IMG/VR virus record: IMGVR_UViG_3300020579_000011
Location: 6,522 to 70,521 of that record
Length of the DNA stretch: 64,000 nt
Direction: 5' to 3' (one strand)
DNA from: a virus
Below the pieces are notes generated by a model. It did no database searches. It worked only from the letters and a program-made list of their open reading frames with translations, and was not told the DNA's origin. Made by a program: the position numbers and the translations under genes. Shown here in pieces: positions 44,023 to 56,523 of the stretch; the stretch's first letter is position 1; each line of letters starts with the position of its first letter.

Positions 44023-44769
44023 TCAAGCTCCTGCCAGTTTCTTCATATCGGCCATTGCGTCTTCGTCCGTATCAAAGAACCGGCAAGGATTGAATTTGCG
44101 CGACGTGTCGCTGGCGTCGTAGATCAACTGCGCCGCGAGTAGCGTGCCGTGAAAGGCTTCGAGTTTTTTGCCCTCTTCGCCTGCCAACGTCATGACCCAT
44201 CCGCCTCGGCAATGCGTCATCTGGCAGGTGTGCCAGGTATTCATTTTTAGATGATGCTCCGGTTGCATGACCGCTTCGTAAACTCGCTTGTGGATGTCGG
44301 GAATCACTGGAATTGTCGGCGCTTTGAAATTGCCTTTTACTGGCGCAGCGCCTTCCAAATCCGAGCAATACGAGCAACGCGAGCAATCCGAGCAACCCGA
44401 GCAACGCGAGCAACCCGAGCAACGCGAGCAACGCGAGCAATCCGAGCAATGCGAGCAACCCGAGCAATCCGAGCAATCCGAGCAACGCGAGCAACGCGAG
44501 CAACCCGAGCAACGCGAGCAATCCGAGCAATCCGAGCAACCCGAGCAATCCGAGCAATCCGAGCAACGCGAGCAACGCGAGCAACCCGAGCAACGCGAGC
44601 AATCCGAGCAATCCGAGCAACGCGAGCAACGCGAGCAACGCGAGCAATCCGAGCAATTAATGCAGTTTTCGCAATTCTTCAAACTGTCCAGCGCTTTTTG
44701 TGCCGCTTCTTTTGTTCCGAAATATTCTACGGAACATTTATTGCCGTTCGTGTCTTTAAGCCAAGTCAT
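44023..44769 (-). CDS. (Cys-Ser-X)33 repeat protein with C-terminal WHTC..THCRGGW domain
   Basis: GAGGAGG RBS; only this frame has coherent unique flanks. Confidence 0.8.
   Translation of the reverse strand: MTWLKDTNGNKCSVEYFGTKEAAQKALDSLKNCENCINCSDCSRCSRCSRCSDCSDCSRCSGCSRCSRCSDCSDCSGCSDCSDCSRCSGCSRCSRCSDCSDCSGCSHCSDCSRCSRCSGCSRCSGCSDCSRCSYCSDLEGAAPVKGNFKAPTIPVIPDIHKRVYEAVMQPEHHLKMNTWHTCQMTHCRGGWVMTLAGEEGKKLEAFHGTLLAAQLIYDASDTSRKFNPCRFFDTDEDAMADMKKLAGA
44359..44655 (-). repeat. 33 tandem 9-nt units TGCTCG-NNT
   Basis: Read directly; third codon GAT/CGT/GGT/CAT/TAT. Confidence 0.97.
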
Positions 44770-45284: not shown

Positions 45285-45742
45285 TAGGATTTGCCTCGAA
45301 CTAAACAACCAAGTCTGACCTTTGCGATTTCTTTGCTGCACGGCGGCTTGCCGTACTTCCCAAATGGTCGAGGCTCTCCGTGACACGCCCCGCACAAGAC
45401 AGCATCCGGTTTCGGTATTTCACACATTGAGGCAGTAAACTTTCTGCGGTCGTGGCGCAACTGAACGAAAAAGATTTGACCGCAGAGCGCCGTGGCTACT
45501 AGATTTGGCGTTTCTAGCCGCAACATCCGGTCGTAATGCGCTTCGTACCAGTGAGCCGTCACGTAAGCAATTTTGTGGATGAGCATTGATTGGCGGGAAG
45601 TGCCGTAAACGTACTTCGGATGCTTCGCAAGTCGAGTCTTCCCGAACTGCCAATCGGCAAAGTCGGGCCGTCCCTCAATCCACATTCCGTTATCTGGCTG
45701 AGTCTCCATTAGCTTGGCCTCGCTCGCCGTCTTGAAAATCAT
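45284..45742 (-). CDS. Hypothetical Zn-binding protein
   Basis: IH...LCG...CGAC. Confidence 0.55.
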   Translation of the reverse strand: MIFKTASEAKLMETQPDNGMWIEGRPDFADWQFGKTRLAKHPKYVYGTSRQSMLIHKIAYVTAHWYEAHYDRMLRLETPNLVATALCGQIFFVQLRHDRRKFTASMCEIPKPDAVLCGACHGEPRPFGKYGKPPCSKEIAKVRLGCLVRGKS

Positions 45743-46005
45743 TTCTTCTTCTCGAAATAATAAATAATAATCAGATCGCCTGAGTGTGGAGGTGGAGGAA
45801 ATTGAAAATGACATTCCCGGATTAAATTACCTTCTTCATCAACTGAGCAGTCATTATCCACCAATACTGTATTGCCGTCGCTATCGGTCCACCAAATCAA
45901 CGGAGGGGGCGGTTGGTACGGTGGGATAACCGGCATGGAGCGCCAGATCATCCAAGAACCCCAGAAGATAAACAGGATTAATAAGACCATGAGAGGGAAT
46001 TTCAT
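45739..46005 (-). CDS. Membrane-anchored Pro-rich protein
   Basis: AAGGAG RBS; N-terminal TM. Confidence 0.55.
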   Translation of the reverse strand: MKFPLMVLLILFIFWGSWMIWRSMPVIPPYQPPPPLIWWTDSDGNTVLVDNDCSVDEEGNLIRECHFQFPPPPHSGDLIIIYYFEKKK

Positions 46006-46411: not shown

Positions 46412-46594
46412 TTACTTCGCCCTCGTAATCAGCTCAACGCGCGTCAATCCAAGTTGGCTTAAGAGTTCGTCGCTCGGAGTGCGCTGACCGCGTAAAATCA
46501 TGTAAAGCAAGGATTTGCTAACCTTTAGCTTCTTGGCTGCTTCGGGCACAGAGCCGAGTTTCTCAATCGCTCTTTCTATAGTGGGGTCGCACAT
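46412..46594 (-). CDS. Cro-like XRE HTH regulator (60 aa)
   Basis: GSVPEAAKKLKVSKSLLYMILRGQRTPS; first gene of the leftward arm. Confidence 0.85.
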   Translation of the reverse strand: MCDPTIERAIEKLGSVPEAAKKLKVSKSLLYMILRGQRTPSDELLSQLGLTRVELITRAK

Positions 46595-46602
46595 AGCACG
46601 CA

Positions 46603-46700
46603 AGTGTAGACTAAGAATAACGGATGTCAAGCAAAAAAGATGATGTGTGCACAAGATTGTGCTTGACACGTTTCCGGGATTATGCGAGTATCCGCTTATC
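46603..46700. promoter_or_regulatory. Divergent promoter switch with palindromic operator
   Basis: Leftward TTGACA (46630-46625)-16 bp-TACACT; rightward TTGACA (46663-46668); palindrome GCACAA-GA-TTGTGC at 46649-46662. Confidence 0.75.
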
Positions 46701-46714
46701 GGAGACAAAAGCCC

Positions 46715-47098
46715 ATGCCACTGGAACGGAGAAAGCGCATAACCGAGAGCGATATCGTGAATCGGGCCGTAGCAGCCGACATCGCGTGGTGGTCCCGCAT
46801 GAACCCACATTGCCCGACTTGCTGCGTAAAACTCGCGGACCTCCAAACAGGGGATAGCTTGTATCGGCACATGGTTGGCGACTGCGAAAAAGATTTGTTG
46901 ATCTTGGGCATCGACTGGGTTCGACAGGGCCGGAATGTTGACGCTCCACTGGCCGACGCCGCAGACCGCGAGGAAGTGAAAGTGAACAAAGGATATGTTG
47001 TGACCGGCAAAACAATGATGTGGATTGCCTTGGTCTTTCTCTCGCTGGCCGCGCTTGGTGGGTACAAGTTGGTTCAGTGGATTATGGAACGACGATGA
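46715..47098 (+). CDS. Hypothetical protein with C-terminal TM
   Basis: GGAG RBS; CPTC; hydrophobic tail. Confidence 0.6.
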   Translation: MPLERRKRITESDIVNRAVAADIAWWSRMNPHCPTCCVKLADLQTGDSLYRHMVGDCEKDLLILGIDWVRQGRNVDAPLADAADREEVKVNKGYVVTGKTMMWIALVFLSLAALGGYKLVQWIMERR

Positions 47099-47334
47099 TC
47101 GAAATGATTTGCACTCCATGCGGTCAACCAGTCGAGCCGAATACGTCTGCCATTGTTGGCGTTGAGCGCGAAGGGAAATTGTTCTGGCGTTGGGCTTGTG
47201 AGCACAATCCGTGCGGCGATGCCGCTGTGATTCTAGCTTCCTCTTCGTGCCGCGAGGAATGGCTCCGTGAACATCCAGAATATATCGAAGATATCGGAGA
47301 CCTGCTCACGCGGAGTCAACACGACCATGATTGA
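47095..47334 (+). CDS. Small Cys-rich protein
   Basis: ATGA coupling; CTPCG. Confidence 0.5.
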   Translation: MIEMICTPCGQPVEPNTSAIVGVEREGKLFWRWACEHNPCGDAAVILASSSCREEWLREHPEYIEDIGDLLTRSQHDHD

Positions 47335-48082: not shown

Positions 48083-48883
48083 ATGGGAACGCAAATAGTG
48101 AAACTGGAAAGCAGTGAGTTCGCAACAGCTCTAGCTCGCTTGCAGGCTGACGCGCAGAATATCGCCGTAAGGACCGCAGACGATTGCTTGGCAGCCAAGA
48201 CGATGCAGCAACAGGTCCGCAGGTACATGAAGGATGTCCACGCAAAGCTCGACCCGTTCGTGCAGATGGCGAAGAACAATTACGATGACGCCAAAGCCGA
48301 GCGGGAAAAGTGGATTGGGCCTGGCGAGAAAGTTGACGAGACGCTGGCTCTCAAGGTGAAAGACTTTGAGCGAGCCGAACGCGAACGCGCCGAAGCTGAG
48401 GAACGTCGCATCAACGAGGAACGCCGACGCAAAGCAGCCGAGGAAGCCGCCAAGCAACGCAAACGAGATGAAGCTGCCGCTGCTGAGAGACGCAAGGAAG
48501 AAGAGAAGCGAATTGCCGAAGCACAGAAGGCTGGCGAGCTAAAGAAGCGCGAAGCCGAGAAGATGCGCCGGGAAGCCGAGGAACGCGAAAGGCAGCAACG
48601 CGAGCAGGCTGTGCGTGACGCCGAAGCAGTCAAGGCGACCGTACAGGATGTCAAGGTTGCGCCATCGATCCCGAAGGTTACTGGAGTACCGTCGCGCCGG
48701 AATTGGAAGTTCCGTATCGTGAATGAGAATGCTTTGATGGACGCCTTCCGCAGTTCAGGTGGCATGGGCCTGCGCGCTTTCGTTCAAATGAACCAAGACG
48801 AAGTTGGCCGGATGGTCCGCGCAACGAAGGACAAAGCCAAAGCGGAAGCATTCTGCCCCGGTATCGAAGTCTACGAGGATTGA
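48083..48883 (+). CDS. Charged coiled-coil protein of the recombination module
   Basis: AAGGAGG RBS; E/R/K helix; ends RRNWKFRI...PGIEVYED. Confidence 0.75.
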   Translation: MGTQIVKLESSEFATALARLQADAQNIAVRTADDCLAAKTMQQQVRRYMKDVHAKLDPFVQMAKNNYDDAKAEREKWIGPGEKVDETLALKVKDFERAERERAEAEERRINEERRRKAAEEAAKQRKRDEAAAAERRKEEEKRIAEAQKAGELKKREAEKMRREAEERERQQREQAVRDAEAVKATVQDVKVAPSIPKVTGVPSRRNWKFRIVNENALMDAFRSSGGMGLRAFVQMNQDEVGRMVRATKDKAKAEAFCPGIEVYED

Positions 48884-48916
48884 GTTTCTCTGTCCTTCCC
48901 CAAAGTTGGTCAGAGA

Positions 48917-49111
48917 AGGGCGCTGTTATCCGGTTGCGGTAAAGATGTAGCTCGTAGGGTACGCAGTGATAGGGTTGTTTGTTGACCTTGGGCGTGAGTC
49001 TCTTAAATGAGCGTATCTCGTCTGGCCGGACATGCGGCCATAGCGGGAGAAAACCCAAGTGAGAACAATCTGATCTCACCTCGACGTCACAATCCCTACT
49101 TTCAGCGCCCT
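48917..49111 (+). ncRNA. Candidate 195-nt multibranched structured RNA
   Basis: Closing stem AGGGCGCTG/CAGCGCCCT plus at least five nested helices; strand assumed from operon direction. Confidence 0.55.
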
Positions 49112-49127
49112 AAGATTCGAGGAGAAT

Positions 49128-49445
49128 ATGGAACGCACAACAATTAAATCGAGTTTAATCCGCGGCGTAGCTTACGACGCGGCGAGCAGCACGCTTGAGG
49201 TCGAATTCGTCCCAAGCAAAAAGCAATTGACCGACTGGAAGGCCGCGAAGAAAGAAGGCGAGGCACCTGGGCCAGTCTATCGGTATCTCGCAGTCGAGCA
49301 AGAGAAGTTTGTTGCTTTGACTGGCGAGAATGAGTACAAATCAGCCGGCAAGTATTTCCTTCGCGTCATCAAGCCGCATCACAAAGCCGAGAAAGTCGAG
49401 GAGACTCCCGTTGAAAAAGAAACCGAAGCGACGCCAGCCGAGTAA
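49128..49445 (+). CDS. KTSC-domain protein
   Basis: SSLIRGVAYD...LEVEF...YRYLAV...SAGKYF...IK. Confidence 0.85.
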   Translation: MERTTIKSSLIRGVAYDAASSTLEVEFVPSKKQLTDWKAAKKEGEAPGPVYRYLAVEQEKFVALTGENEYKSAGKYFLRVIKPHHKAEKVEETPVEKETEATPAE

Positions 49446-50904
49446 GCAGCACGGCAGTACCGCCATCGTCAAACGGAATGGCGAACTCCATGTTCCAAAG
49501 ATTCCCGACAAGGTAGAGCAGGCTTTGATCGGCGGGAATCTCATCAACCTCAGTTCCGAGGAGCGTGTGTCGCTCGTGATGGCGACGTGCAAATCTCTGC
49601 GACTGAATCCGCTCACGAATCCGTTCATCTTCATCCTAGTTCAAGATTGGGAGAACGATTCGGAGCGTTTGATTCTCTACGCCTCGCGGAACTGCACGGA
49701 CCAACTCCGCATGATTCACGGCGTTACCGAAGTGCAGCCGCTTGAACAGTGGGACGAAGATGAAATGTTGATGGCGCGAGCCTACCTGCGGGACCGGAGC
49801 GGACGGTGCGCCTCGGACATTGGAGCCATACCACGCAAGCGGTACTCCAAAAAAAAGGGAACGTGGTACGAACTCAGTGGCTCGATGCTTGCAAATGCCA
49901 AGATGCACGTCGGGACGAAGGCCACGCGCCGGGCCACACTCAAATTAGTTGGACTCGGCGGCGCCGTGATTGATGAATCCGAACTCGATACCATGAACGT
50001 GATCGGCGGGGTGACAAGAGAAGGCCGCATCTATCGGCACGAAGGAAGCGACGAAGTAGTTACGCCACGCGATGCAGCCCATCAAATCGCGGACGCTAAA
50101 ACTTCGGGAACTTGGTGCGAGAAGCATCGCTGTGACTTTAGTAAGTGCCCGTCCGATGACCACACGCCGAAAGAAAACGAAGAGATGGACAAGGCCGCAC
50201 AGAACGCCAAACCGAAACCTGCCAAGAAACCAGACCCTAAGCAGGGAGACTCAGCCGCCGATGTCCCCAAGGCCGCTACTGCTCCCGTGGCGAGCCAGCC
50301 AGCGCACAAGTACGAGTTGACGATTGACTGGAGCATGGACCGCAACGCGCCAGTGCTCACAGGCTATGTCAAGGAACTGGTCGTAGCGCTTGGTGACATC
50401 AAACTCGAATGGAAGAACGAATTTTGGCACGCGGCAGCTAAGGATATTCCAGCCATCATGCAGATTGCTGGACAAAAAGGCTTCTTGGTGAAAGAGATTC
50501 AACCGGGACAAGTTCCTCGTACCGATCAGCCGAAGTCAGCGCCATCGGTGCCAAGGAAAGAGGGAGGCGGGAGTCCTGGACCTTCCGCCTCCCCTGTGTT
50601 GGTGGTGGGTGTTATTGATCGTGTAACGGCACCGACAACTAGCAAGGGACAGCCAATGCGTCAAGTAACCATCCTTGTTGGTGGAAAAAAGCCAACATTT
50701 GGCTGCTTCCAGAAGGAACTATTCGATTACCTGGACAAAAGTAAGGGCGCAATCGAGGCATGGACAACGACAAGCGGGAAATATTTCAACTTGATTGGCC
50801 TAAAAAGTATTGTGACGCTCAAGGGCAAAATTGAGTTTGATGAAGACGGCAAAACTCCTTGTATTCAACGCGACCGAGATGCTGGAACACCTAAACTGTT
50901 TTAG
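49411..50904 (+). CDS. RecT/Red-beta-like ssDNA annealing protein with C-terminal extension
   Basis: TTG after GAGGAG; CKSLRLNPL...KATRRATL. Confidence 0.7.
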   Translation: MKKKPKRRQPSKQHGSTAIVKRNGELHVPKIPDKVEQALIGGNLINLSSEERVSLVMATCKSLRLNPLTNPFIFILVQDWENDSERLILYASRNCTDQLRMIHGVTEVQPLEQWDEDEMLMARAYLRDRSGRCASDIGAIPRKRYSKKKGTWYELSGSMLANAKMHVGTKATRRATLKLVGLGGAVIDESELDTMNVIGGVTREGRIYRHEGSDEVVTPRDAAHQIADAKTSGTWCEKHRCDFSKCPSDDHTPKENEEMDKAAQNAKPKPAKKPDPKQGDSAADVPKAATAPVASQPAHKYELTIDWSMDRNAPVLTGYVKELVVALGDIKLEWKNEFWHAAAKDIPAIMQIAGQKGFLVKEIQPGQVPRTDQPKSAPSVPRKEGGGSPGPSASPVLVVGVIDRVTAPTTSKGQPMRQVTILVGGKKPTFGCFQKELFDYLDKSKGAIEAWTTTSGKYFNLIGLKSIVTLKGKIEFDEDGKTPCIQRDRDAGTPKLF

Positions 50905-51446
50905 GAAGGGAAATTGAGTTGAGCAAATTCTCGATGCTTGATTTTCGCCGCTTTGTCGTAGGCACGTGCAGCCTTCTCTTTGGATTGAAAATAACCGAGA
51001 TGTTCTCCAATGCCTCCAATCGCAATTTGCGCTCGCCATTCACCGCGACGAGCCTCCCACGATACTCCCCTGAATCCGCTCGAATTTCTCTTTTGGATCC
51101 CGCGATTTATTACATTCCCAGAAAAATCGGCAGGCCGAAGATTACGCCTCCTATTGTCGAGCGTATCTCGATTTTTATGATCGCCTTGTTGGTCGCCTTC
51201 CAGTCCAAGGATAAGTCGGTGCATCTTACAATTTTTTGTCTTGCGATTTTCTCTTCCGCCTCCCAAATATACGGTCCTAGTTGCGTAAAAGGATTTTGTT
51301 TTTTGATCATACACAGCGCACCAGTTCCATTGCGACAGCCACTCAAAATCCTGCACATCAACGATGGCGTTTTGCCCTTGCGTCAATGGAATAAAGCGGT
51401 AGGATTCATCGAGCGGCTGAGTGACCGCGTGTCTCTTCACGCGCAT
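50901..51446 (-). CDS. HNH-AP2 free-standing homing endonuclease
   Basis: IPLTQG..IVD, MHRLIL, DHKNRDTLDNRRRNLR, SGFRGV, HLGYF, AARAYD. Confidence 0.92.
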   Translation of the reverse strand: MRVKRHAVTQPLDESYRFIPLTQGQNAIVDVQDFEWLSQWNWCAVYDQKTKSFYATRTVYLGGGRENRKTKNCKMHRLILGLEGDQQGDHKNRDTLDNRRRNLRPADFSGNVINRGIQKRNSSGFRGVSWEARRGEWRAQIAIGGIGEHLGYFQSKEKAARAYDKAAKIKHREFAQLNFPS

Positions 51447-51501: not shown

Positions 51502-51732
51502 ATGGTTGAGCCGACGAAGCTAGACGAATCCAAATTCATCCGGCGCTATATGTACGGATCGACGCAGCGCGAAGGATTCAGGGAACTTTGGAAGACCTGG
51601 GTAGACCGTTGGGGAGAATTGCAGGCCGCAGACGCTCTACTGGCTGGAATGTGTGACTTCGAGGCTCGCTATCAGGACTTGAGACGCACAGTGGCCGAGC
51701 GCCGGAAGAGGAAAAAGAATGCACGAGTTTAA
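51502..51732 (+). CDS. Hypothetical protein
   Basis: ORF overlapping the next start. Confidence 0.45.
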   Translation: MVEPTKLDESKFIRRYMYGSTQREGFRELWKTWVDRWGELQAADALLAGMCDFEARYQDLRRTVAERRKRKKNARV

Positions 51733-52144
51733 GCCCGACAAAGCCCGTACCGCGGCTGCTTACCACGCGGGCGTTTTGAAAGATCCGAAACAGCGCTCCT
51801 ATATTTCTAATACTGGCCACGTGTTTTTGTTCGGCCCAGACCTAGCAGAACAATGGGAAAGAATTTTTGAGTATCAGCAAGGCAAGTGCGCAGCCTGCGG
51901 ACTCCCACGCCAGCGAGACGAGCTCGACCTAGACCACGTGAAGGGAAATACAAAACTCACTCGCTGCGAATGCTACGGGCAGATGTTGAATGACGTGAAC
52001 GCGCCCGCGTGCTTCGGCGTGAGACTGATCTGTACCATGGATGTGCGGAAACCTGGCTACAAACCGGACGGCTGCCATTCACGAAAACATGGACGCGAGG
52101 TTCGCTCAGACAGAAAGGAACGCCGTGAACAGGGAAGAGTTTAA
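51719..52144 (+). CDS. HNH-like nuclease
   Basis: CAACG...LDLDH...C...CHSRKH. Confidence 0.7.
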   Translation: MHEFKPDKARTAAAYHAGVLKDPKQRSYISNTGHVFLFGPDLAEQWERIFEYQQGKCAACGLPRQRDELDLDHVKGNTKLTRCECYGQMLNDVNAPACFGVRLICTMDVRKPGYKPDGCHSRKHGREVRSDRKERREQGRV

Positions 52145-52299
52145 ATTGAAGTGGAAGATTGACCAGATTCTCGCCAAACAATATCGCTGGCGCGAGGAGG
52201 AAAGACCAACTCCATCAGAGTGGGCATTGCTACTAGCTTATATGGACGCTGGAATCTTGTATTGTAGGCATTTTATTTTCTACTGGCGGAGTCCCGCTT

Positions 52300-52500
52300 C
52301 TACGTTTTCCACTCCTGTGCCCGACTGTAAGCCTTTGCCTTATTTGGAAGGGGGAGTTAAAAAAAGTCCTAAACAAAGTGCCACATTTCTGGGGGGAACC
52401 TTGTGAATCCACAGGCTATCTGTGGACGGTTTGTTAAAATGTCTACAAGTCTTGTGTTATCAACGCCGAATTATGCACACTCGGTGGAAAATATTTCACA
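52300..52500. other. Putative replication origin (DnaA-box cluster)
   Basis: One perfect TTWTNCACA (52471) and several near-matches in AT-richer DNA. Confidence 0.55.
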
Positions 52501-52507
52501 AGACCTC

Positions 52508-52535
52508 TTGACGTAGTTTCAGAAGAAAGGACAAT
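52508..52535 (+). promoter_or_regulatory. Sigma70-like promoter (leaderless)
   Basis: TTGACG-16 bp-GACAAT, 6 nt before ATG 52542. Confidence 0.6.
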
Positions 52536-52541
52536 TCGACC

Positions 52542-52886
52542 ATGCACGACATAGCAATTCCACTCGACACAATCTTGGAGATGGTCAGCGGACTGTGCCC
52601 AAACTGCCAGAGCCAAGTGCGGAAGTATATCGCCGCGAATCAATTCGACAATCGGCACAGCATCGACGAGCGCATGAAACAGATCATGCAGCGAGTCTAC
52701 GATGAGACTGGCGTCACGATATTCGAGATGCGAGCCAAGGACAATCGCATGAGACTCGTAGAGGCGCGGCGCAAGGTTGCGGTCCTAGCGAGACAGCAAT
52801 CCATTTCCTATCCACGAATCGGTGCGGCGCTAAGTAAGCACCATACGACCATCATGCATTTAGTGGAGACTGCTCAAGGCAGATAA
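52542..52886 (+). CDS. DnaA domain-IV (Bac_DnaA_C)-like HTH protein
   Basis: LVEARRKVAVLAR...SYPRIGAAL.KHHTTIMH; N-terminal CPNC. Confidence 0.85.
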   Translation: MHDIAIPLDTILEMVSGLCPNCQSQVRKYIAANQFDNRHSIDERMKQIMQRVYDETGVTIFEMRAKDNRMRLVEARRKVAVLARQQSISYPRIGAALSKHHTTIMHLVETAQGR

Positions 52887-53099
52887 ATGAGACTCGGCAA
52901 ATCCTCCCTAACGCAAGACGAGATGCGCACCGAAGCCCAGGTCCACGTCGAGGCGCTCAAGTCGTGTACCGAAGCTATGGCACCCAACGAGAAGGCGATG
53001 GTCACCAAACTCGCGGGGAATTTCGAGAAGTATGGACCCAAGACCTTCATAAGCAGCAATCAATTGTTTTGGCTCAGGGACATACACGAACGATTCTGA
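52887..53099 (+). CDS. Hypothetical protein
   Basis: Coupled; ISSNQLFWLRDIHER. Confidence 0.6.
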   Translation: MRLGKSSLTQDEMRTEAQVHVEALKSCTEAMAPNEKAMVTKLAGNFEKYGPKTFISSNQLFWLRDIHERF

Positions 53100-53131: not shown

Positions 53132-53341
53132 GTGACTTCCTACATTCCAAAGGTCGAGCGATGGAGAGACGAGTGCAAGGCTAAGATGGTCTTGGCTCAC
53201 GAAGGTACAACCTTGTACGACATGCTCGCTGGACATTTGAAGATGTACGAGGAGCTGCTGGAGTCCATGCGCAAGTGCCATGAGCCTGCCCAAAAGAGTT
53301 TGATGCCACAGGAGCCAAGAGAGCCAGGGTGCGAAGGATGA
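53132..53341 (+). CDS. Hypothetical protein
   Basis: GAGGAGG RBS. Confidence 0.55.
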   Translation: MTSYIPKVERWRDECKAKMVLAHEGTTLYDMLAGHLKMYEELLESMRKCHEPAQKSLMPQEPREPGCEG

Positions 53342-54732
53342 TTACGGACTACAACATTTTTCTAGAAACAAAATCGCAACTTGGCACTCTCTCAGGATTC
53401 AAACCGCACAAGGTTCCTGATTCCCTATTCGACTTTCAGAAATCGCTTGTTGAGTGGTCCTTGATGAAAGGTAAAGCGGCCATCTTTGCGGATTGCGGAC
53501 TCGGGAAAACACCGATGCAGTTGACTTGGGCCGATAACATTGTGCGAAAAGAAAACCGGTCTGTCCTTGTTCTCACTCCATTGGCTGTCTCTGCGCAAAC
53601 TGTTCGTGAGGGAGACAAGTTTCAGATCGAATGTAGGCAGTCGCGCGATGGGAAATTGCGCAAGGGCATCGTGGTCACGAACTATGAGCAGTTACACCAC
53701 TTTGACCCAAATGATTTTGTGGGTTGTGTCTGCGACGAATCCAGCATCCTTAAATCCTACGATGGCACACGCCGCGGCGAAATCACAGAGTTCATGCGCA
53801 AGATGCCATACCGCCTACTTTGCACCGCGACAGCCGCGCCGAATGATTACATCGAACTTGGAACATCCAGCGAGGCCCTCGGAGAACTCGGGCATGTGGA
53901 CATGCTCCAACGTTTTTTCAAGAACGACCAGAACACGGTCAAACCGATGGTCTATCGAAACAAAGGACAGAACTTCAAAGCCAACTATGAGCGGGCTAAA
54001 TGGCGTTTCAAGGGCCATGCGGAGCTACCTTTCTGGCGTTGGCTCTGTTCTTGGGCGCGCGCGATTAGAAAGCCTTCGGATCTTGGATTTGAGGACGGCG
54101 CATTTGTTCTTCCGCCGCTCATCGAATCGGAGCATTTGGTTGTCGCTGAGAAGTTAGCGCCTGGAATGCTTTTTGCCCTCCCTGCTATCGGCCTCAAGGA
54201 ACAGCGCGAAGAACGGCGCCGCACATTAAAGGAACGCTGTGAGAAATTGGCGGAACTATCAAACACTGGAAAGCAAAGTCTAATCTGGTGTCACCTGAAC
54301 GATGAAGGCGACCTACTTGAGAAGCTCATCCCAAACTCGGTCCAGATTAGTGGCAGTGATTCAGACGAAAAGAAAGAGGAAGCTTTTCTTGCCTTCGCGG
54401 ACGGCAAACTAGAGAACCTCATCACTAAACCAAAGATCGGTGCATGGGGTATGAACTTCCAAAGATGCTCGCATGTTCTTTCGTTCCCCTCACATTCTTT
54501 CGAGCAATATTACCAGGGCATCCGGCGTTGCTGGCGATTCGGGCAGACCAAACCAGTGCGCTTCGATTTGGTTTTCACGGAAGGAGAAAAAGACGTGCTT
54601 GTGAATCTACGGAGAAAGACGCAGGCCTGCGAGCGCATGTTCGCTAGTCTAGTGGCTGAGATGAATAACGCGCTCCATTTGTCAAGAGGCGACGAAAGAG
54701 CCGCGGAAGTGGTGGTCCCGAAATGGCTATGA
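53338..54732 (+). CDS. SF2/SNF2-like helicase
   Basis: DCGLGKT, CDESS, TATAAPN, GMNFQ, QGIRRCWRFGQ. Confidence 0.92.
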   Translation: MITDYNIFLETKSQLGTLSGFKPHKVPDSLFDFQKSLVEWSLMKGKAAIFADCGLGKTPMQLTWADNIVRKENRSVLVLTPLAVSAQTVREGDKFQIECRQSRDGKLRKGIVVTNYEQLHHFDPNDFVGCVCDESSILKSYDGTRRGEITEFMRKMPYRLLCTATAAPNDYIELGTSSEALGELGHVDMLQRFFKNDQNTVKPMVYRNKGQNFKANYERAKWRFKGHAELPFWRWLCSWARAIRKPSDLGFEDGAFVLPPLIESEHLVVAEKLAPGMLFALPAIGLKEQREERRRTLKERCEKLAELSNTGKQSLIWCHLNDEGDLLEKLIPNSVQISGSDSDEKKEEAFLAFADGKLENLITKPKIGAWGMNFQRCSHVLSFPSHSFEQYYQGIRRCWRFGQTKPVRFDLVFTEGEKDVLVNLRRKTQACERMFASLVAEMNNALHLSRGDERAAEVVVPKWL

Positions 54733-55697
54733 TTCCGCAAGAGATCGACAAAAAGTACGCCATCTATCAGGGAGACTGCATCGAGGTTATGGCTGGACTG
54801 CCAGAGGCCAGCGTGCATCTGTCTGTATACTCTCCGCCATTCGGAGGTCTGTATCACTATTCTTCGAGCGATCGAGACTTGTCCAACGCCAAAGATTACG
54901 GACAGTTCTTTGAGCACTATGCTTTTGTGGTCCGTGAGATTTTCCGGCTTACCTTGCCTGGGCGCATGACTGCTGTGCATTGCATGGATGTGCCTTCTGG
55001 AAATTCTGGAACGGACCATCTGATTGACTTCCCGGGTGACATTATCCGCCTGCATGAAAAAGAAGGATTTAGGTACATAGCGCGTTATTCCATCTGGAAA
55101 GAACCTCTCGCTGTCCGCAATCGCACGATGGCAAAGAACCTCGCGCACAAAACAATCGTTGAGGACTCCTCACGGTGCAGCGTAGCTTCGGCAGATTATC
55201 TTCTAGTGTTCCGCAAGAAAGGAAAAAATACCGTCGCCATAAAACATCTGAACGGTCTTACGGAATATGCCGGCGAGCGAAAGATGCCAGCCGAACTCCT
55301 GAAATATAAAGGCTGGACAGGAAACCAGATCGAGAATCGTTACTCTCATTGGATTTGGAGACAGTATGCCTCTGCATTTTGGGATGATATTCGACTTGGC
55401 CGCGTGCTCCCGTTCAAAAATGCGCGTGATGAAGAGGACGAGAAGCATGTTCATCCTTTGCAATTGGATGTGATCGAACGCTGCCTTGTGCTCTGGTCAA
55501 ATCCCGGTGAAGTCATTCTCACGCCATTCATGGGAGTAGGCTCCGAGGTCTACGCCGCAGTCATGAACGGACGAAAGGGACTCGGCATGGAATTAAAGAA
55601 AAGCTATTACAACCAAGCGCGAAAGAACATCGAGGCTGCTGTAAAGGGTTGGCAGGACCAAACTAATCAAGGTTCGCTAATCGAAGTGTCCGCTTGA
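54723..55697 (+). CDS. N4-cytosine/N6-adenine DNA methyltransferase (beta class)
   Basis: YSPPF, then HVHPLQ, then TPFMGVGSE. Confidence 0.92.
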   Translation: MAMIPQEIDKKYAIYQGDCIEVMAGLPEASVHLSVYSPPFGGLYHYSSSDRDLSNAKDYGQFFEHYAFVVREIFRLTLPGRMTAVHCMDVPSGNSGTDHLIDFPGDIIRLHEKEGFRYIARYSIWKEPLAVRNRTMAKNLAHKTIVEDSSRCSVASADYLLVFRKKGKNTVAIKHLNGLTEYAGERKMPAELLKYKGWTGNQIENRYSHWIWRQYASAFWDDIRLGRVLPFKNARDEEDEKHVHPLQLDVIERCLVLWSNPGEVILTPFMGVGSEVYAAVMNGRKGLGMELKKSYYNQARKNIEAAVKGWQDQTNQGSLIEVSA

Positions 55698-55820: not shown

Positions 55821-56105
55821 ATGTATGTTACATTCGGCGACAACGTGCCCTCCGTCACTTACTTTTGTTTGCGTCACAAAGGCTTTGTCACCGAGGAGTG
55901 CAAGACTCCAAACCATCGGTGCAAGCGCGGGCTGTGTCGGCCATGCGTGCGCAAGATTCTAGCTGAGGCTTACGCGACTTCGGAGCACGGGACCATCTCA
56001 CGGGTATACGAGCAGATCATCCGAAAAGCGGAACGAGCGAAAAGGAGAGCGAATGGCAACAAAAGGAAAAAAGTCCAGCCCCAAAAAGAAGTCATCGCAG
56101 CCTAG
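55821..56105 (+). CDS. Cys/His-rich basic protein
   Basis: CLRH..C..HRC..LCRPC; overlaps next gene. Confidence 0.45.
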   Translation: MYVTFGDNVPSVTYFCLRHKGFVTEECKTPNHRCKRGLCRPCVRKILAEAYATSEHGTISRVYEQIIRKAERAKRRANGNKRKKVQPQKEVIAA

Positions 56106-56523
56106 CCCAAAGCCTGTCCCACCAAAGCGAACAGGCAAGGCTGGCATAGGTCCGCTTGAGCATCCCGGCGATCTCGTTCAGCAAGACGAAACACGCACAG
56201 CAAAAGAGAACGCCACCGTAACGTCTGAACCTGTGAAAGAAGAAGGCAGTTCCTTACCAGAATCCGAAAAGAAAACCCCGCGTCAACGTCGCTTACCAGG
56301 ACTCGAAGACGCGAAGATCGAAGAACTCGAAAGCGCAGCGGAAGAATATGCCGACATCCGGGACCGGCGAATGGCTCTCACGACGGATGAAGTCGCCTGC
56401 AAGGAAGAGCTGCTCGCATTGATGAAGAAGCACGGCAAAGTTTCCTACATCCACAACGGCTACGACATCAAGGTTGTCGTGGAGTCCGAGAAGCTAAAAG
56501 TTAAAATCAAGAAAGAAGATTAA
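56053..56523 (+). CDS. Hypothetical protein with basic N-terminus
   Basis: AAGGAG RBS. Confidence 0.7.
   Translation: MATKGKKSSPKKKSSQPSPKPVPPKRTGKAGIGPLEHPGDLVQQDETRTAKENATVTSEPVKEEGSSLPESEKKTPRQRRLPGLEDAKIEELESAAEEYADIRDRRMALTTDEVACKEELLALMKKHGKVSYIHNGYDIKVVVESEKLKVKIKKED

What the first reader, a model, noticed from the sequence alone, without database searches (positions are those of the whole stretch)
52270..52886. oriC mimic: DnaA-box cluster next to a stand-alone DnaA domain-IV gene in a phage with no recognisable replisome genes
Seen against TTWTNCACA: perfect TTATGCACA (52471); 8/9 TTTTCCACT (52305), TTTTCCACC (minus, 52483-52491) and TATTTCACA (52492); 7/9 GAATCCACA (52405), GGATTCACA (minus, 52402-52410) and TTATCAACG (52457). 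There is an inverted TCCACAG/CTGTGGA pair and AT-rich tracts, followed by the promoter of the DnaA-IV gene. No polymerase, primase, DnaB or O-like initiator is recognisable. Inference: the phage replicates from a host-DnaA origin, and its ATPase-less DnaA domain modulates this origin or blocks host oriC. Alternatively the boxes titrate DnaA (datA-like).
Basis: partly seen in the sequence, partly recalled or inferred. Interest (0 to 1): 0.75.

Follow-up and report, generated by a model that had tools for sequence, protein, structure and literature searches.

The report
DnaA-box operator before phage DnaA-IV gene
A soil phage carries a small gene for just the DNA-binding part of the bacterial replication starter DnaA, and DnaA-type binding sites sit clustered in front of that gene in related phages too, which looks more like a self-controlled gene switch than a proven replication origin.

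Summary
All seven listed 9-mers and the inverted repeat are at the stated coordinates. The gene at 52542-52886 is a stand-alone DnaA domain IV (Pfam E=1.2e-10; model superposes on DnaA DNA-binding domains at 1.0-1.3 A). No polymerase, primase, DnaB, O-like or AAA+ initiator was found.

Taken alone, the cluster is only modestly significant: 4 boxes with at most 1 mismatch against 0.75 expected locally (P=0.006), but P=0.18 genome-wide. The 7/9 boxes are at chance level.

The comparative evidence is stronger. Two other phage lineages (L101, L104; proteins 38-42% identical) also carry box clusters directly upstream of their DnaA-IV genes. L101 shares a conserved two-box element, an extended -10 motif and the same spacing.

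There is no AT-rich unwinding element and no skew switch here. A fourth lineage (L003) has no perfect box in 62.9 kb.

Best reading (0.5): an autoregulated promoter/operator bound by the phage DnaA-IV protein and possibly host DnaA. Origin reading: about 0.2, and not mutually exclusive. Closest known: GafY/HdaB and the pelagiphage DnaA-domain genes.

The parts
52305..52313 (+). TTTTCCACT, DnaA box 8/9. It lies about 100 bp upstream of the conserved module and may fall inside the unverified ORF 52041-52406.
   Evidence: One of only 3 TTTTCCAC octamers in the 70.5-kb genome. This variant is used in acidobacterial dnaA-flank clusters.
52402..52410 (-). GGATTCACA (plus strand TGTGAATCC), first box of conserved element 1.
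   Evidence: 7/9 to the consensus. TTGTGAATCC is identical in L101, upstream of its DnaA-IV gene. TTGTGAATCCNCA is unique in the window.
52421..52429 (-). CCGTCCACA (plus strand TGTGGACGG), second box of element 1. The core CTGTGGA is conserved.
   Evidence: In L101 the matching site is a perfect TTTTCCACA, with a start-to-start distance of 18 bp against 19 bp here.
52408..52426 (.).
   Evidence: The left arm is not kept in L101 (TCCTCA), no terminator-like site is found in L101, and the RNA fold is no better than shuffles (z=-0.3).
52432..52440 (+). TGTTAAAAT, extended -10 promoter motif.
   Evidence: The only match to TGT[TG]A[AT]AAT in the whole genome. L101 has TGTGATAAT, also starting 11 nt after the start of the TGTGGA box.
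52457..52465 (+). TTATCAACG, 7/9 box.
   Evidence: Present, but two-mismatch boxes are at chance level.
52471..52491 (.). Convergent box pair TTATGCACA (+, 9/9) - ctc - GGTGGAAAA (= TTTTCCACC on the minus strand, 8/9).
   Evidence: L101 has a convergent 9-mer pair with a 3-bp spacer at the same distance (68-69 bp) from element 1.
52492..52500 (+). TATTTCACA, 8/9 box abutting the pair.
52508..52535 (+). Promoter-like TTGACG-16-GACAAT (9 of 12), just before the start codon.
   Evidence: A weak consensus match only.
52542..52886 (+). Stand-alone DnaA domain IV gene (114 aa): an N-terminal 45 aa with invariant C19 and C22, then the DnaA helix-turn-helix.
   Evidence: Pfam PF08299. AF2 pLDDT 95, and all top-10 Foldseek PDB hits are DnaA. 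Belongs to a family of short proteins: 784 representatives at E<=1e-3, and the best 150 are all 69-351 aa.
48083..50904 (+). Context: exonuclease (48083-48883), KTSC-domain ORF (49128-49445) and RecT-like protein (49330-50904), syntenic with the DnaA-IV gene in relatives.
   Evidence: PHROG exonuclease. Pfam KTSC E=1e-10. The L003 and L101 homologues are Pfam RecT at 3.7e-16 and 2.1e-12.
53329..55697 (+). Context: SNF2-type helicase (53329-54732) and DNA methylase (54723-55697), downstream on the same strand.

Best explanation
The stretch 52400-52541 is the promoter/operator region of the phage's DnaA-domain-IV gene and probably of the genes behind it on the same strand.

Shown:
- The gene encodes a DnaA-type DNA-binding domain that keeps 5 of the 6 base-contacting residues.
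- DnaA boxes of the probable host's flavour (TTTTCCACA-like) are concentrated directly upstream of this gene in three phage lineages.
- Two of those lineages share a two-box element, an extended -10 motif 11 nt after the second box, and a convergent box pair 68-69 bp further on.

Inferred:
- The phage protein, and possibly host DnaA as well, binds these boxes. One set overlaps the -35/spacer of the promoter and the other lies just downstream of the likely start site.
- The gene therefore controls its own expression, as the bacterial dnaA promoter does (recalled from textbook knowledge, not checked here) and as the GTA regulator GafY binds the gafYZ promoter (PMC11150451 passages).
- The protein's main targets are then DnaA boxes outside this region, most likely on the host chromosome (oriC and DnaA-regulated promoters). 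Lacking an ATPase and helicase-loading domains, it would compete with DnaA there rather than replace it.
For: (1) Protein. Pfam Bac_DnaA_C E=1.2e-10. AF2 pLDDT 95; top-10 Foldseek PDB hits are all DnaA, with the three isolated DNA-binding-domain entries (3pvp, 1j1v, 8btg) at rmsd 1.0-1.3 A over 70-71 columns. Aligned through 3pvp, and by my own transfer to E. coli numbering from a recalled E. coli sequence, R69, P91, H101, T102 and H106 match E. coli R399, P423, H434, T435 and H439. Those residues are listed as base contacts in PMC7561715 (passage).

(2) Replication in relatives. Boxes with at most 1 mismatch against own-region shuffles: window 52407-52550, 3 vs 0.41 (P=0.0065); L101, 3 vs 0.59 (P=0.017); L104, 4 vs 1.05 (P=0.013). 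In each case this is the locus maximum.

(3) The octamer TTTTCCAC comes from the top 9-mer flanking acidobacterial dnaA genes, not from the phage. It occurs 3, 2 and 6 times in the three phage genomes, and 5 of these 11 lie in the three upstream regions, about 660 of 196,946 bp. Expected about 0.04, by my arithmetic.

(4) Conserved architecture with L101 (protein 38% identical). TTGTGAATCC is identical and CTGTGGA is kept. TGT(T/G)A(A/T)AAT starts 11 nt after the TGTGGA box in both and is unique in this genome. A convergent pair with a 3-bp spacer follows 68-69 bp on.

(5) Synteny. The exonuclease-RecT-...-DnaA-IV order is shared with L003, L101 and L104.

(6) Precedent. GafY/HdaB is a stand-alone DnaA domain IV homologue (PMC9632790 passage) that binds its own operon's promoter and other promoters (PMC11150451 passages).
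Against: - The promoter call rests on two sequences. L104 has the boxes and an element-1-like sequence but no clear extended -10. The consensus scan found only a weak sigma-70 match here and none in L101.
- No RNA data exist, so no transcription start is known.
- An operator and an origin are not exclusive. Iteron replicons combine both next to the initiator gene (recalled, not checked here).
- D433 is replaced by His in at least 90% of the 47 aligned family sequences, so the protein's exact specificity may differ from the canonical box.
- Only 3 of 11 examined loci show upstream clusters.
- Genome-wide, this cluster alone is not significant against shuffles (P=0.18).
- Which protein binds, phage or host, is untested.
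Confidence: 0.5

Rival explanations
1. Phage replication origin. The box cluster recruits host DnaA, which opens the DNA and loads the host helicase. The phage DnaA-IV protein modulates this origin or blocks host oriC. The gene plus its boxes would form a minimal 'initiator gene plus iterons' replicon.
For: - No initiator, helicase loader, primase or polymerase is recognisable in 84 ORFs or in three six-frame family searches.
- The cluster sits in the early DNA-metabolism module beside the exonuclease and RecT genes.
- Box density of 4 per 200 bp is within the range of the best windows beside acidobacterial dnaA genes (median 3, range 1-10 in 40 loci), and uses the same variants.
- L104 has four same-orientation boxes, three of them closely spaced.
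- Origins commonly lie beside the initiator gene (recalled, not checked here).
Against: - There is no AT-rich unwinding element. GC is 0.42-0.45 and the region is not among the 15 lowest-GC windows. No 13-mer or other repeats were found in the region beyond one 12-nt two-copy match at its 3' edge (52532-52543 / 52641-52652).
- The GC-skew minimum is at about 46-47 kb, with no switch at 52.4 kb.
- The L003 lineage has the gene but no cluster within 6 kb either side, and no perfect box in 62.9 kb.
- A domain-IV-only protein would compete with DnaA at these very boxes.
- About 20 early ORFs have no known family and could hide an initiator.
Confidence: 0.2
2. Host-takeover device with incidental boxes. 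The protein acts only on the host, either blocking oriC or de-repressing DnaA-controlled genes, or it acts like HdaB by binding a host regulator of DnaA. The upstream boxes let host DnaA, rather than the phage protein, set the gene's expression, or they titrate DnaA as datA does.
For: - The base-contact residues match the host type.
- HdaB, the same protein as GafY, causes over-initiation when expressed (PMC7049699 abstract).
- The L003 lineage keeps the gene without any boxes in its own genome, so a target outside the phage is likely.
Against: - No host is in hand, so no interaction data exist.
- Three to five boxes per genome copy is a small sink.
- The conserved spacing and promoter motif argue for local regulation rather than plain titration.
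Confidence: 0.2
3. Chance cluster in an AT-richer intergenic stretch, with the hairpin acting as a transcription terminator of the upstream genes.
For: - The genome-wide shuffle test is not significant (P=0.18).
- The 7/9 boxes are at chance level.
- The hairpin plus T-rich tail is flagged as terminator-like.
Against: - The cluster recurs in L101 and L104, each enriched against its own shuffles.
- The 12-nt identity, motif order and spacing are shared with L101 although the proteins are only 38% identical.
- The hairpin's left arm is not kept, L101 has no terminator-like site there, and the fold is no better than shuffles.
Confidence: 0.05

Closest known systems
GafY / HdaB (CCNA_01111) of Caulobacter crescentus and the DnaA-like N-terminal domain of GafA (gene transfer agent activators)
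   Same: A small stand-alone homologue of DnaA domain IV in a phage-derived element. GafY binds the promoter of its own operon and other promoters. HdaB expression disturbs host replication initiation (PMC9632790 and PMC11150451 passages, PMC7049699 abstract, PMC9638019 passages).
   Different: - No GafZ-like or sigma-like partner gene was detected next to this gene (Pfam).
- This family has its own N-terminal 45-aa part with two invariant cysteines.
- The sites here look like genuine DnaA boxes.
- Sequence membership was not tested, because no GafY sequence was obtained from a tool.
DnaA DNA-binding-domain genes (PF08299) of HTVC010P-type pelagiphages
   Same: A phage gene encoding only the DnaA DNA-binding domain, sitting with an exonuclease gene in the early region of phages with no DNA or RNA polymerase. 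The authors suggest a role in starting or regulating phage replication (PMC8477408 passage).
   Different: - tblastn of this protein found no match in 50,697 cultured-phage records at E<=1e-3, so it is at best a distant relative.
- No box cluster is described in the passage I read.
Bacterial oriC / autoregulated dnaA promoter region
   Same: Clusters of TTWTNCACA-type boxes next to a gene that encodes a protein binding them. Box variants match those beside acidobacterial dnaA genes.
   Different: - The protein lacks domains I-III.
- There is no unwinding element and no skew switch.
- There are only 3-4 good boxes.
Iteron-type plasmid/phage replicons (Rep gene plus adjacent repeated binding sites, often with DnaA boxes; e.g. 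P1 oriR) - recalled, not checked in papers here
   Same: Repeated binding sites immediately beside the gene for the protein that binds them, with autoregulation through those sites.
   Different: - No Rep-type winged-helix protein is present.
- The sites are irregular in orientation and spacing.
- There is no adjacent AT-rich repeat region.

Membership tests
DnaA domain IV (Pfam PF08299 Bac_DnaA_C) | Profile match above the curated cut-off | tested here: met
   41.7 bits against a cut-off of 31.5, E=1.2e-10, residues 46-109.
DnaA domain IV (Pfam PF08299 Bac_DnaA_C) | Fold of the DnaA DNA-binding domain | tested here: met
   AF2 pLDDT 95. All top-10 Foldseek PDB hits are DnaA; the DNA-binding-domain entries (3pvp, 1j1v, 8btg) fit at rmsd 1.0-1.3 A over 70-71 columns.
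DnaA domain IV (Pfam PF08299 Bac_DnaA_C) | Base-contacting residues R399, P423, D433, H434, T435, H439 (PMC7561715 passage) | tested here: inconclusive
   Five of six are kept (R69, P91, H101, T102, H106). D433 is His100, as in all 80 acidobacterial DnaA loci read and in at least 90% of the 47 aligned family sequences. The transfer to E. coli numbering is my own, from a recalled sequence.
Full-length initiator DnaA | AAA+ ATPase domain III | tested here: not met
   The protein is 114 aa. A six-frame search of the genome for PF00308 found nothing at E<=0.1.
DnaA-dependent replication origin (oriC-like) | Cluster of DnaA boxes above background | tested here: inconclusive
   4 boxes per 200 bp, the genome maximum. 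Local P=0.006 but genome-wide P=0.18. Recurs in L101 and L104.
DnaA-dependent replication origin (oriC-like) | Adjacent AT-rich DNA unwinding element with repeats | tested here: not met
   GC is 0.42-0.45 and the region is not among the 15 lowest-GC 60-bp windows. No tandem repeats lie in the region; the only direct repeat touching it is a two-copy 12-nt family at 52532-52543 / 52641-52652.
DnaA-dependent replication origin (oriC-like) | GC-skew switch at the site | tested here: not met
   The cumulative skew minimum is at about 46-47 kb. Skew stays positive across 52 kb. Skew here also follows transcription direction, so this test is weak.
DnaA-dependent replication origin (oriC-like) | Autonomous replication, and DnaA binding | not testable with these tools
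   Needs a minireplicon assay and EMSA or ChIP.
GafY/HdaB-type stand-alone DnaA-IV regulators | Small stand-alone domain IV protein in a phage-like element | tested here: met
   The best 150 profile hits are all 69-351 aa.
GafY/HdaB-type stand-alone DnaA-IV regulators | Adjacent GafZ / sigma-like partner gene | tested here: not met
   The downstream ORFs (70 aa and 69 aa) and the L003 269-aa ORF have no Pfam family. NCBIfam found none for the two window ORFs.
GafY/HdaB-type stand-alone DnaA-IV regulators | Sequence relatedness to GafY itself | not tested
   No GafY sequence was obtained from a tool. NCBIfam has no specific model that hit.
Autoregulated promoter/operator | Binding sites for the encoded protein overlapping a promoter of its own gene | tested here: inconclusive
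   Conserved boxes flank a conserved extended -10 motif in two lineages. There are no transcript or binding data.

The most novel reading that the evidence does not exclude
The DnaA-IV gene plus its box cluster is a minimal phage replicon and take-over switch for phages that carry no replisome genes. The phage protein occupies host oriC boxes and stops host initiation. The displaced host DnaA then fires the phage's own box cluster, so one 114-aa DNA-binding domain redirects the whole host replication machinery to the phage.
Probability: 0.12. Interest if true: 0.85.

Novelty: new variant of a known kind. Interest (0 to 1): 0.5.

Why it matters
Stand-alone DnaA DNA-binding domains occur in many uncultured phages. 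The profile search found 784 representatives at 50% identity clustering. What they do is open: pelagiphage authors guess at replication, while the one studied relative (GafY/HdaB) has been read both as a transcription activator and as a replication de-regulator.

This locus gives a concrete, testable cis-target. Host-type DnaA boxes sit in a conserved arrangement at the gene's own promoter in three lineages. This is a concrete place to test whether such proteins bind canonical DnaA boxes and compete with host DnaA. It also offers a test of how phages without any recognisable replication genes, only an exonuclease and RecT, get copied.

It also yields a de novo DnaA-box consensus for Acidobacteriota, (g)TTTTCCACA(g).

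Tried and rejected
- Closer relatives for footprinting. Proteins 70-83% identical exist, but their contigs could not be fetched.
- Read laying. A relative in run X8 aligns to 51507-52127 and 52893-53035 but not across the box region and gene at 80% likeness. A 178-bp contig in X7 holds only 52392-52435 with 1 difference. This was too little to use. No RNA holder was listed.
- Homodimer prediction. No verdict (score 0.19, mark 0.42), so it is not used either way.
- Terminator reading of the hairpin. Rejected.
- Repeated 10-mer TCGGTGGAAA (4 copies) and CTTGTGAATC at 54598. The flanks do not extend, and the number of 10-mer matches found is about what chance gives.
- Box 'avoidance' in the genome. 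The count is 59 against 90 +/- 8.8 in shuffles, but same-composition control motifs range from 49 to 100, so the effect is not specific.
- Whether ORF 52041-52406 is a real gene. It has no similarity to the L101 ORF in the same position, and the codon score is uninformative. This stays open.
- Host assignment through prophage copies. The family profile hit only chromosomal dnaA frames in 133 of 401 sampled Acidobacteriota genomes.
- Cultured phages. No DnaA-IV match. The large terminase subunit is at most 27% identical.
- Supplementary files of papers were not seen. Figure S2 and the tables of PMC9638019 may bear on the small DnaA-like genes next to gafA.

Full report
**What the window is.** The window is bases 6522-70521 of a 70,521-bp virus record, rated complete. 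Its ends share a short direct repeat. Runs that hold it are soil metagenomes.
- Structural and packaging genes lie on the minus strand up to about 45.8 kb.
- A repressor-like gene (46412-47119, minus) faces a plus-strand early block that starts at 47267.
- The early block contains an exonuclease (48083-48883) and a KTSC protein.
- It also contains a 524-aa protein whose homologues in relatives are Pfam RecT, and an AP2/HNH-like gene on the opposite strand.
- Small ORFs follow, then the region in question, then the DnaA domain IV gene (52542-52886), two small ORFs, an SNF2-type helicase and a DNA methylase.

**The observation.**
- Against TTWTNCACA the window has 4 perfect, 52 one-mismatch and 646 two-mismatch matches. 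The 200 bp from 52293 hold 4 boxes with at most 1 mismatch, the maximum for the window and the whole genome.
- Shuffling the region itself gives 0.75-0.91 expected (P=0.006-0.014).
- The cluster alone is not overwhelming. 72 of 400 whole-genome shuffles (0.18) reach 4 somewhere, and P=0.034 if the real 59 boxes are scattered uniformly.
- Two-mismatch boxes are at chance level.
- GC is 0.42-0.45 against 0.53 for the genome, but the region is not among the 15 lowest-GC windows.

**The gene.**
- Pfam Bac_DnaA_C matches above its cut-off.
- The AlphaFold model has pLDDT 95. Its ten best PDB matches are all DnaA, and the DNA-bound domain IV structures (3pvp, 1j1v) and 8btg fit at 1.0-1.3 A.
- Through the alignment to 3pvp, and my own transfer to E. 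coli numbering from a recalled sequence, five of the six base-contacting residues listed in PMC7561715 (passage) are kept. D433 is His.
- A profile of close homologues found 784 representatives at E<=1e-3 among 1.84 billion proteins. The best 150 are all 69-351 aa.
- The 47 aligned relatives share an N-terminal LCxxC segment (C19 and C22 invariant) and (K/R)HHT in the recognition helix.
- The protein is therefore one of a sizeable family of stand-alone domain IV proteins with its own N-terminal piece.

**Replication genes.** None was found by the following searches:
- Pfam on 46 non-structural and 38 structural ORFs;
- PHROGs on 20 ORFs;
- six-frame searches for DnaB_C, Phage_rep_O and the DnaA AAA+ domain.

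Many early ORFs have no family, so an unknown initiator cannot be excluded.

**Probable host and its boxes.**
- A genome scan seeded with the protein's KHHTT motif returned full-length chromosomal DnaA genes, almost all labelled Acidobacteriota, and all with KHHTT. That scan was pattern-selected, and at least 90% of the aligned phage family also has HH at these positions, so it is weak evidence on its own.
- Independent support comes from one acidobacterial genome (G017). It carries a prophage-like stretch sharing eight structural and packaging proteins with this phage at 28-47% identity.
- Against this, the terminase matched only 2 of 401 sampled genomes, and no stand-alone domain IV copy was found in 401.
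- De novo counting of 9-mers flanking acidobacterial dnaA genes gives TTTTCCACA as the leading box-like word, with consensus (g)TTTTCCACA(g).
- The best 200-bp windows in 40 such loci hold 1-10 boxes (median 3). They use TTTTCCACC, TTTTCCACT and TTATGCACA, three of the four good boxes seen here.

**Comparative evidence (the main result).** I examined 11 independent loci encoding relatives.
- Two besides the window show box clusters directly upstream of the gene. These are L101 (38% identical over 110 aligned residues) and L104 (41.5% identical; a complete 67-kb genome with terminal repeats).
- Each cluster is its locus maximum and is enriched against its own shuffles (P=0.017 and 0.013).
- TTTTCCAC occurs 3, 2 and 6 times in the three genomes, and 5 of these 11 lie in the three upstream regions.
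- L101 shares a detailed layout with the window. TTGTGAATCC is identical, followed 9-10 bp later by CTGTGGA, which makes two boxes on the minus strand.
- A TGT(T/G)A(A/T)AAT motif then starts 11 nt after the start of the second box. A convergent 9-mer pair with a 3-bp spacer follows 68-69 bp downstream of the first box.
- That TGTnAnAAT motif fits an extended -10 promoter element and is unique in this genome.
Its left arm differs in L101, L101 has no terminator-like site, and the fold is no better than shuffles.
- L104 has an element-1-like sequence and four same-orientation boxes, but no clear extended -10.
- L003 shares the exonuclease-RecT-DnaA-IV order, but its gene follows another ORF by 24 bp. 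It has no cluster within 6 kb either side, and its 62.9-kb record has no perfect box at all.

**Interpretation.** The boxes are functional sites for a DnaA-type DNA-binding domain, placed around a promoter of the gene that encodes such a domain.
- The simplest mechanism is autoregulation by the phage protein, with host DnaA able to bind the same sites.
- The L003 case suggests the protein's main targets are outside the phage genome, most plausibly host DnaA boxes. There an ATPase-less domain would compete with DnaA.
- The origin reading remains possible, and is compatible with autoregulation.
- However, it lacks an unwinding element, a skew signal and generality across lineages.

**Known relatives in print.**
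- HTVC010P-type pelagiphages carry a PF08299-only gene and lack polymerases (PMC8477408, passage).
- GafY/HdaB of Caulobacter is a domain IV homologue. It activates GTA genes and binds its own operon's promoter (PMC9632790 and PMC11150451, passages). It was first described as a RIDA inhibitor that causes over-initiation (PMC7049699, abstract).
- GafA has a DnaA-like N-terminal DNA-binding domain (PMC9638019, passages).
- Searches for 'DnaA domain IV' plus phage, for phage-encoded DnaA boxes and origins, and for Bac_DnaA_C/PF08299 turned up no description of DnaA-box clusters at such phage genes.

**Verdict.**
- The origin interpretation is only partly supported.
- The best reading is a conserved, probably autoregulated promoter/operator of a phage DnaA-domain-IV gene: a new variant of a known kind, of moderate interest.

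Noticed in passing
window 44023-44769 (-), repeat 44358-44657: This ORF encodes about 33 tandem Cys-Ser-X tripeptides (CSRCSDCSG...), from a 9-bp repeat with about 33 copies (27-bp super-period). It matches PHROG families of unknown function only.
   Followed up: partly
L101 5082-5864 and L104 5200-5829; window 56053-56523: A conserved gene of unknown function follows the DnaA-IV gene in L101 and L104 (33% identity, E=5e-29). The window's 156-aa ORF, 3.2 kb downstream beyond the helicase and methylase, matches the L101 gene at 43% over 51 aa (E=1.5e-4) but shares only a short N-terminal PK(R/K)TG..GIGP motif with the L104 gene.
   Followed up: partly
L013-L092 (flanks of acidobacterial dnaA genes): De novo box consensus for Acidobacteriota is (g)TTTTCCACA(g). 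Pyrinomonadaceae-type loci have 6-10 boxes per 200 bp just downstream of dnaA, while many Terriglobia loci have only 2-5. All 80 DnaA proteins read KHHTT where E. coli has RDHTT (the E. coli motif is recalled).
   Followed up: partly
window 45416-45854: The second-densest group of one-mismatch boxes (TATTTCACA, TTTCACACA, TCATCCACA, TTATCCACC) lies in and next to the 176-aa gene, at the divergent region where the long minus-strand gene block begins. It shows no similarity to the conserved element.
   Followed up: no
window 52392-52435: A 178-bp low-depth contig in another soil run (X7) carries just this 44-bp stretch (the two-box element) with one difference, and unrelated sequence on both sides.
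   Followed up: no
window 50901-51446 (-) and 51719-52144 (+): An AP2-domain, HNH-like gene sits on the opposite strand inside the early block. The 141-aa Cys/His-rich ORF just upstream of the box region has homologues in the same position in L101 (35% identity).
   Followed up: partly
window 52041-52406 (+): An open frame of 121 aa overlaps the end of the 141-aa ORF and runs up to the conserved element. If it is a real gene, the non-coding region shrinks to 52407-52541 and the TTTTCCACT box at 52305 is coding. Neither the homology test nor the codon score settled this.
   Followed up: partly
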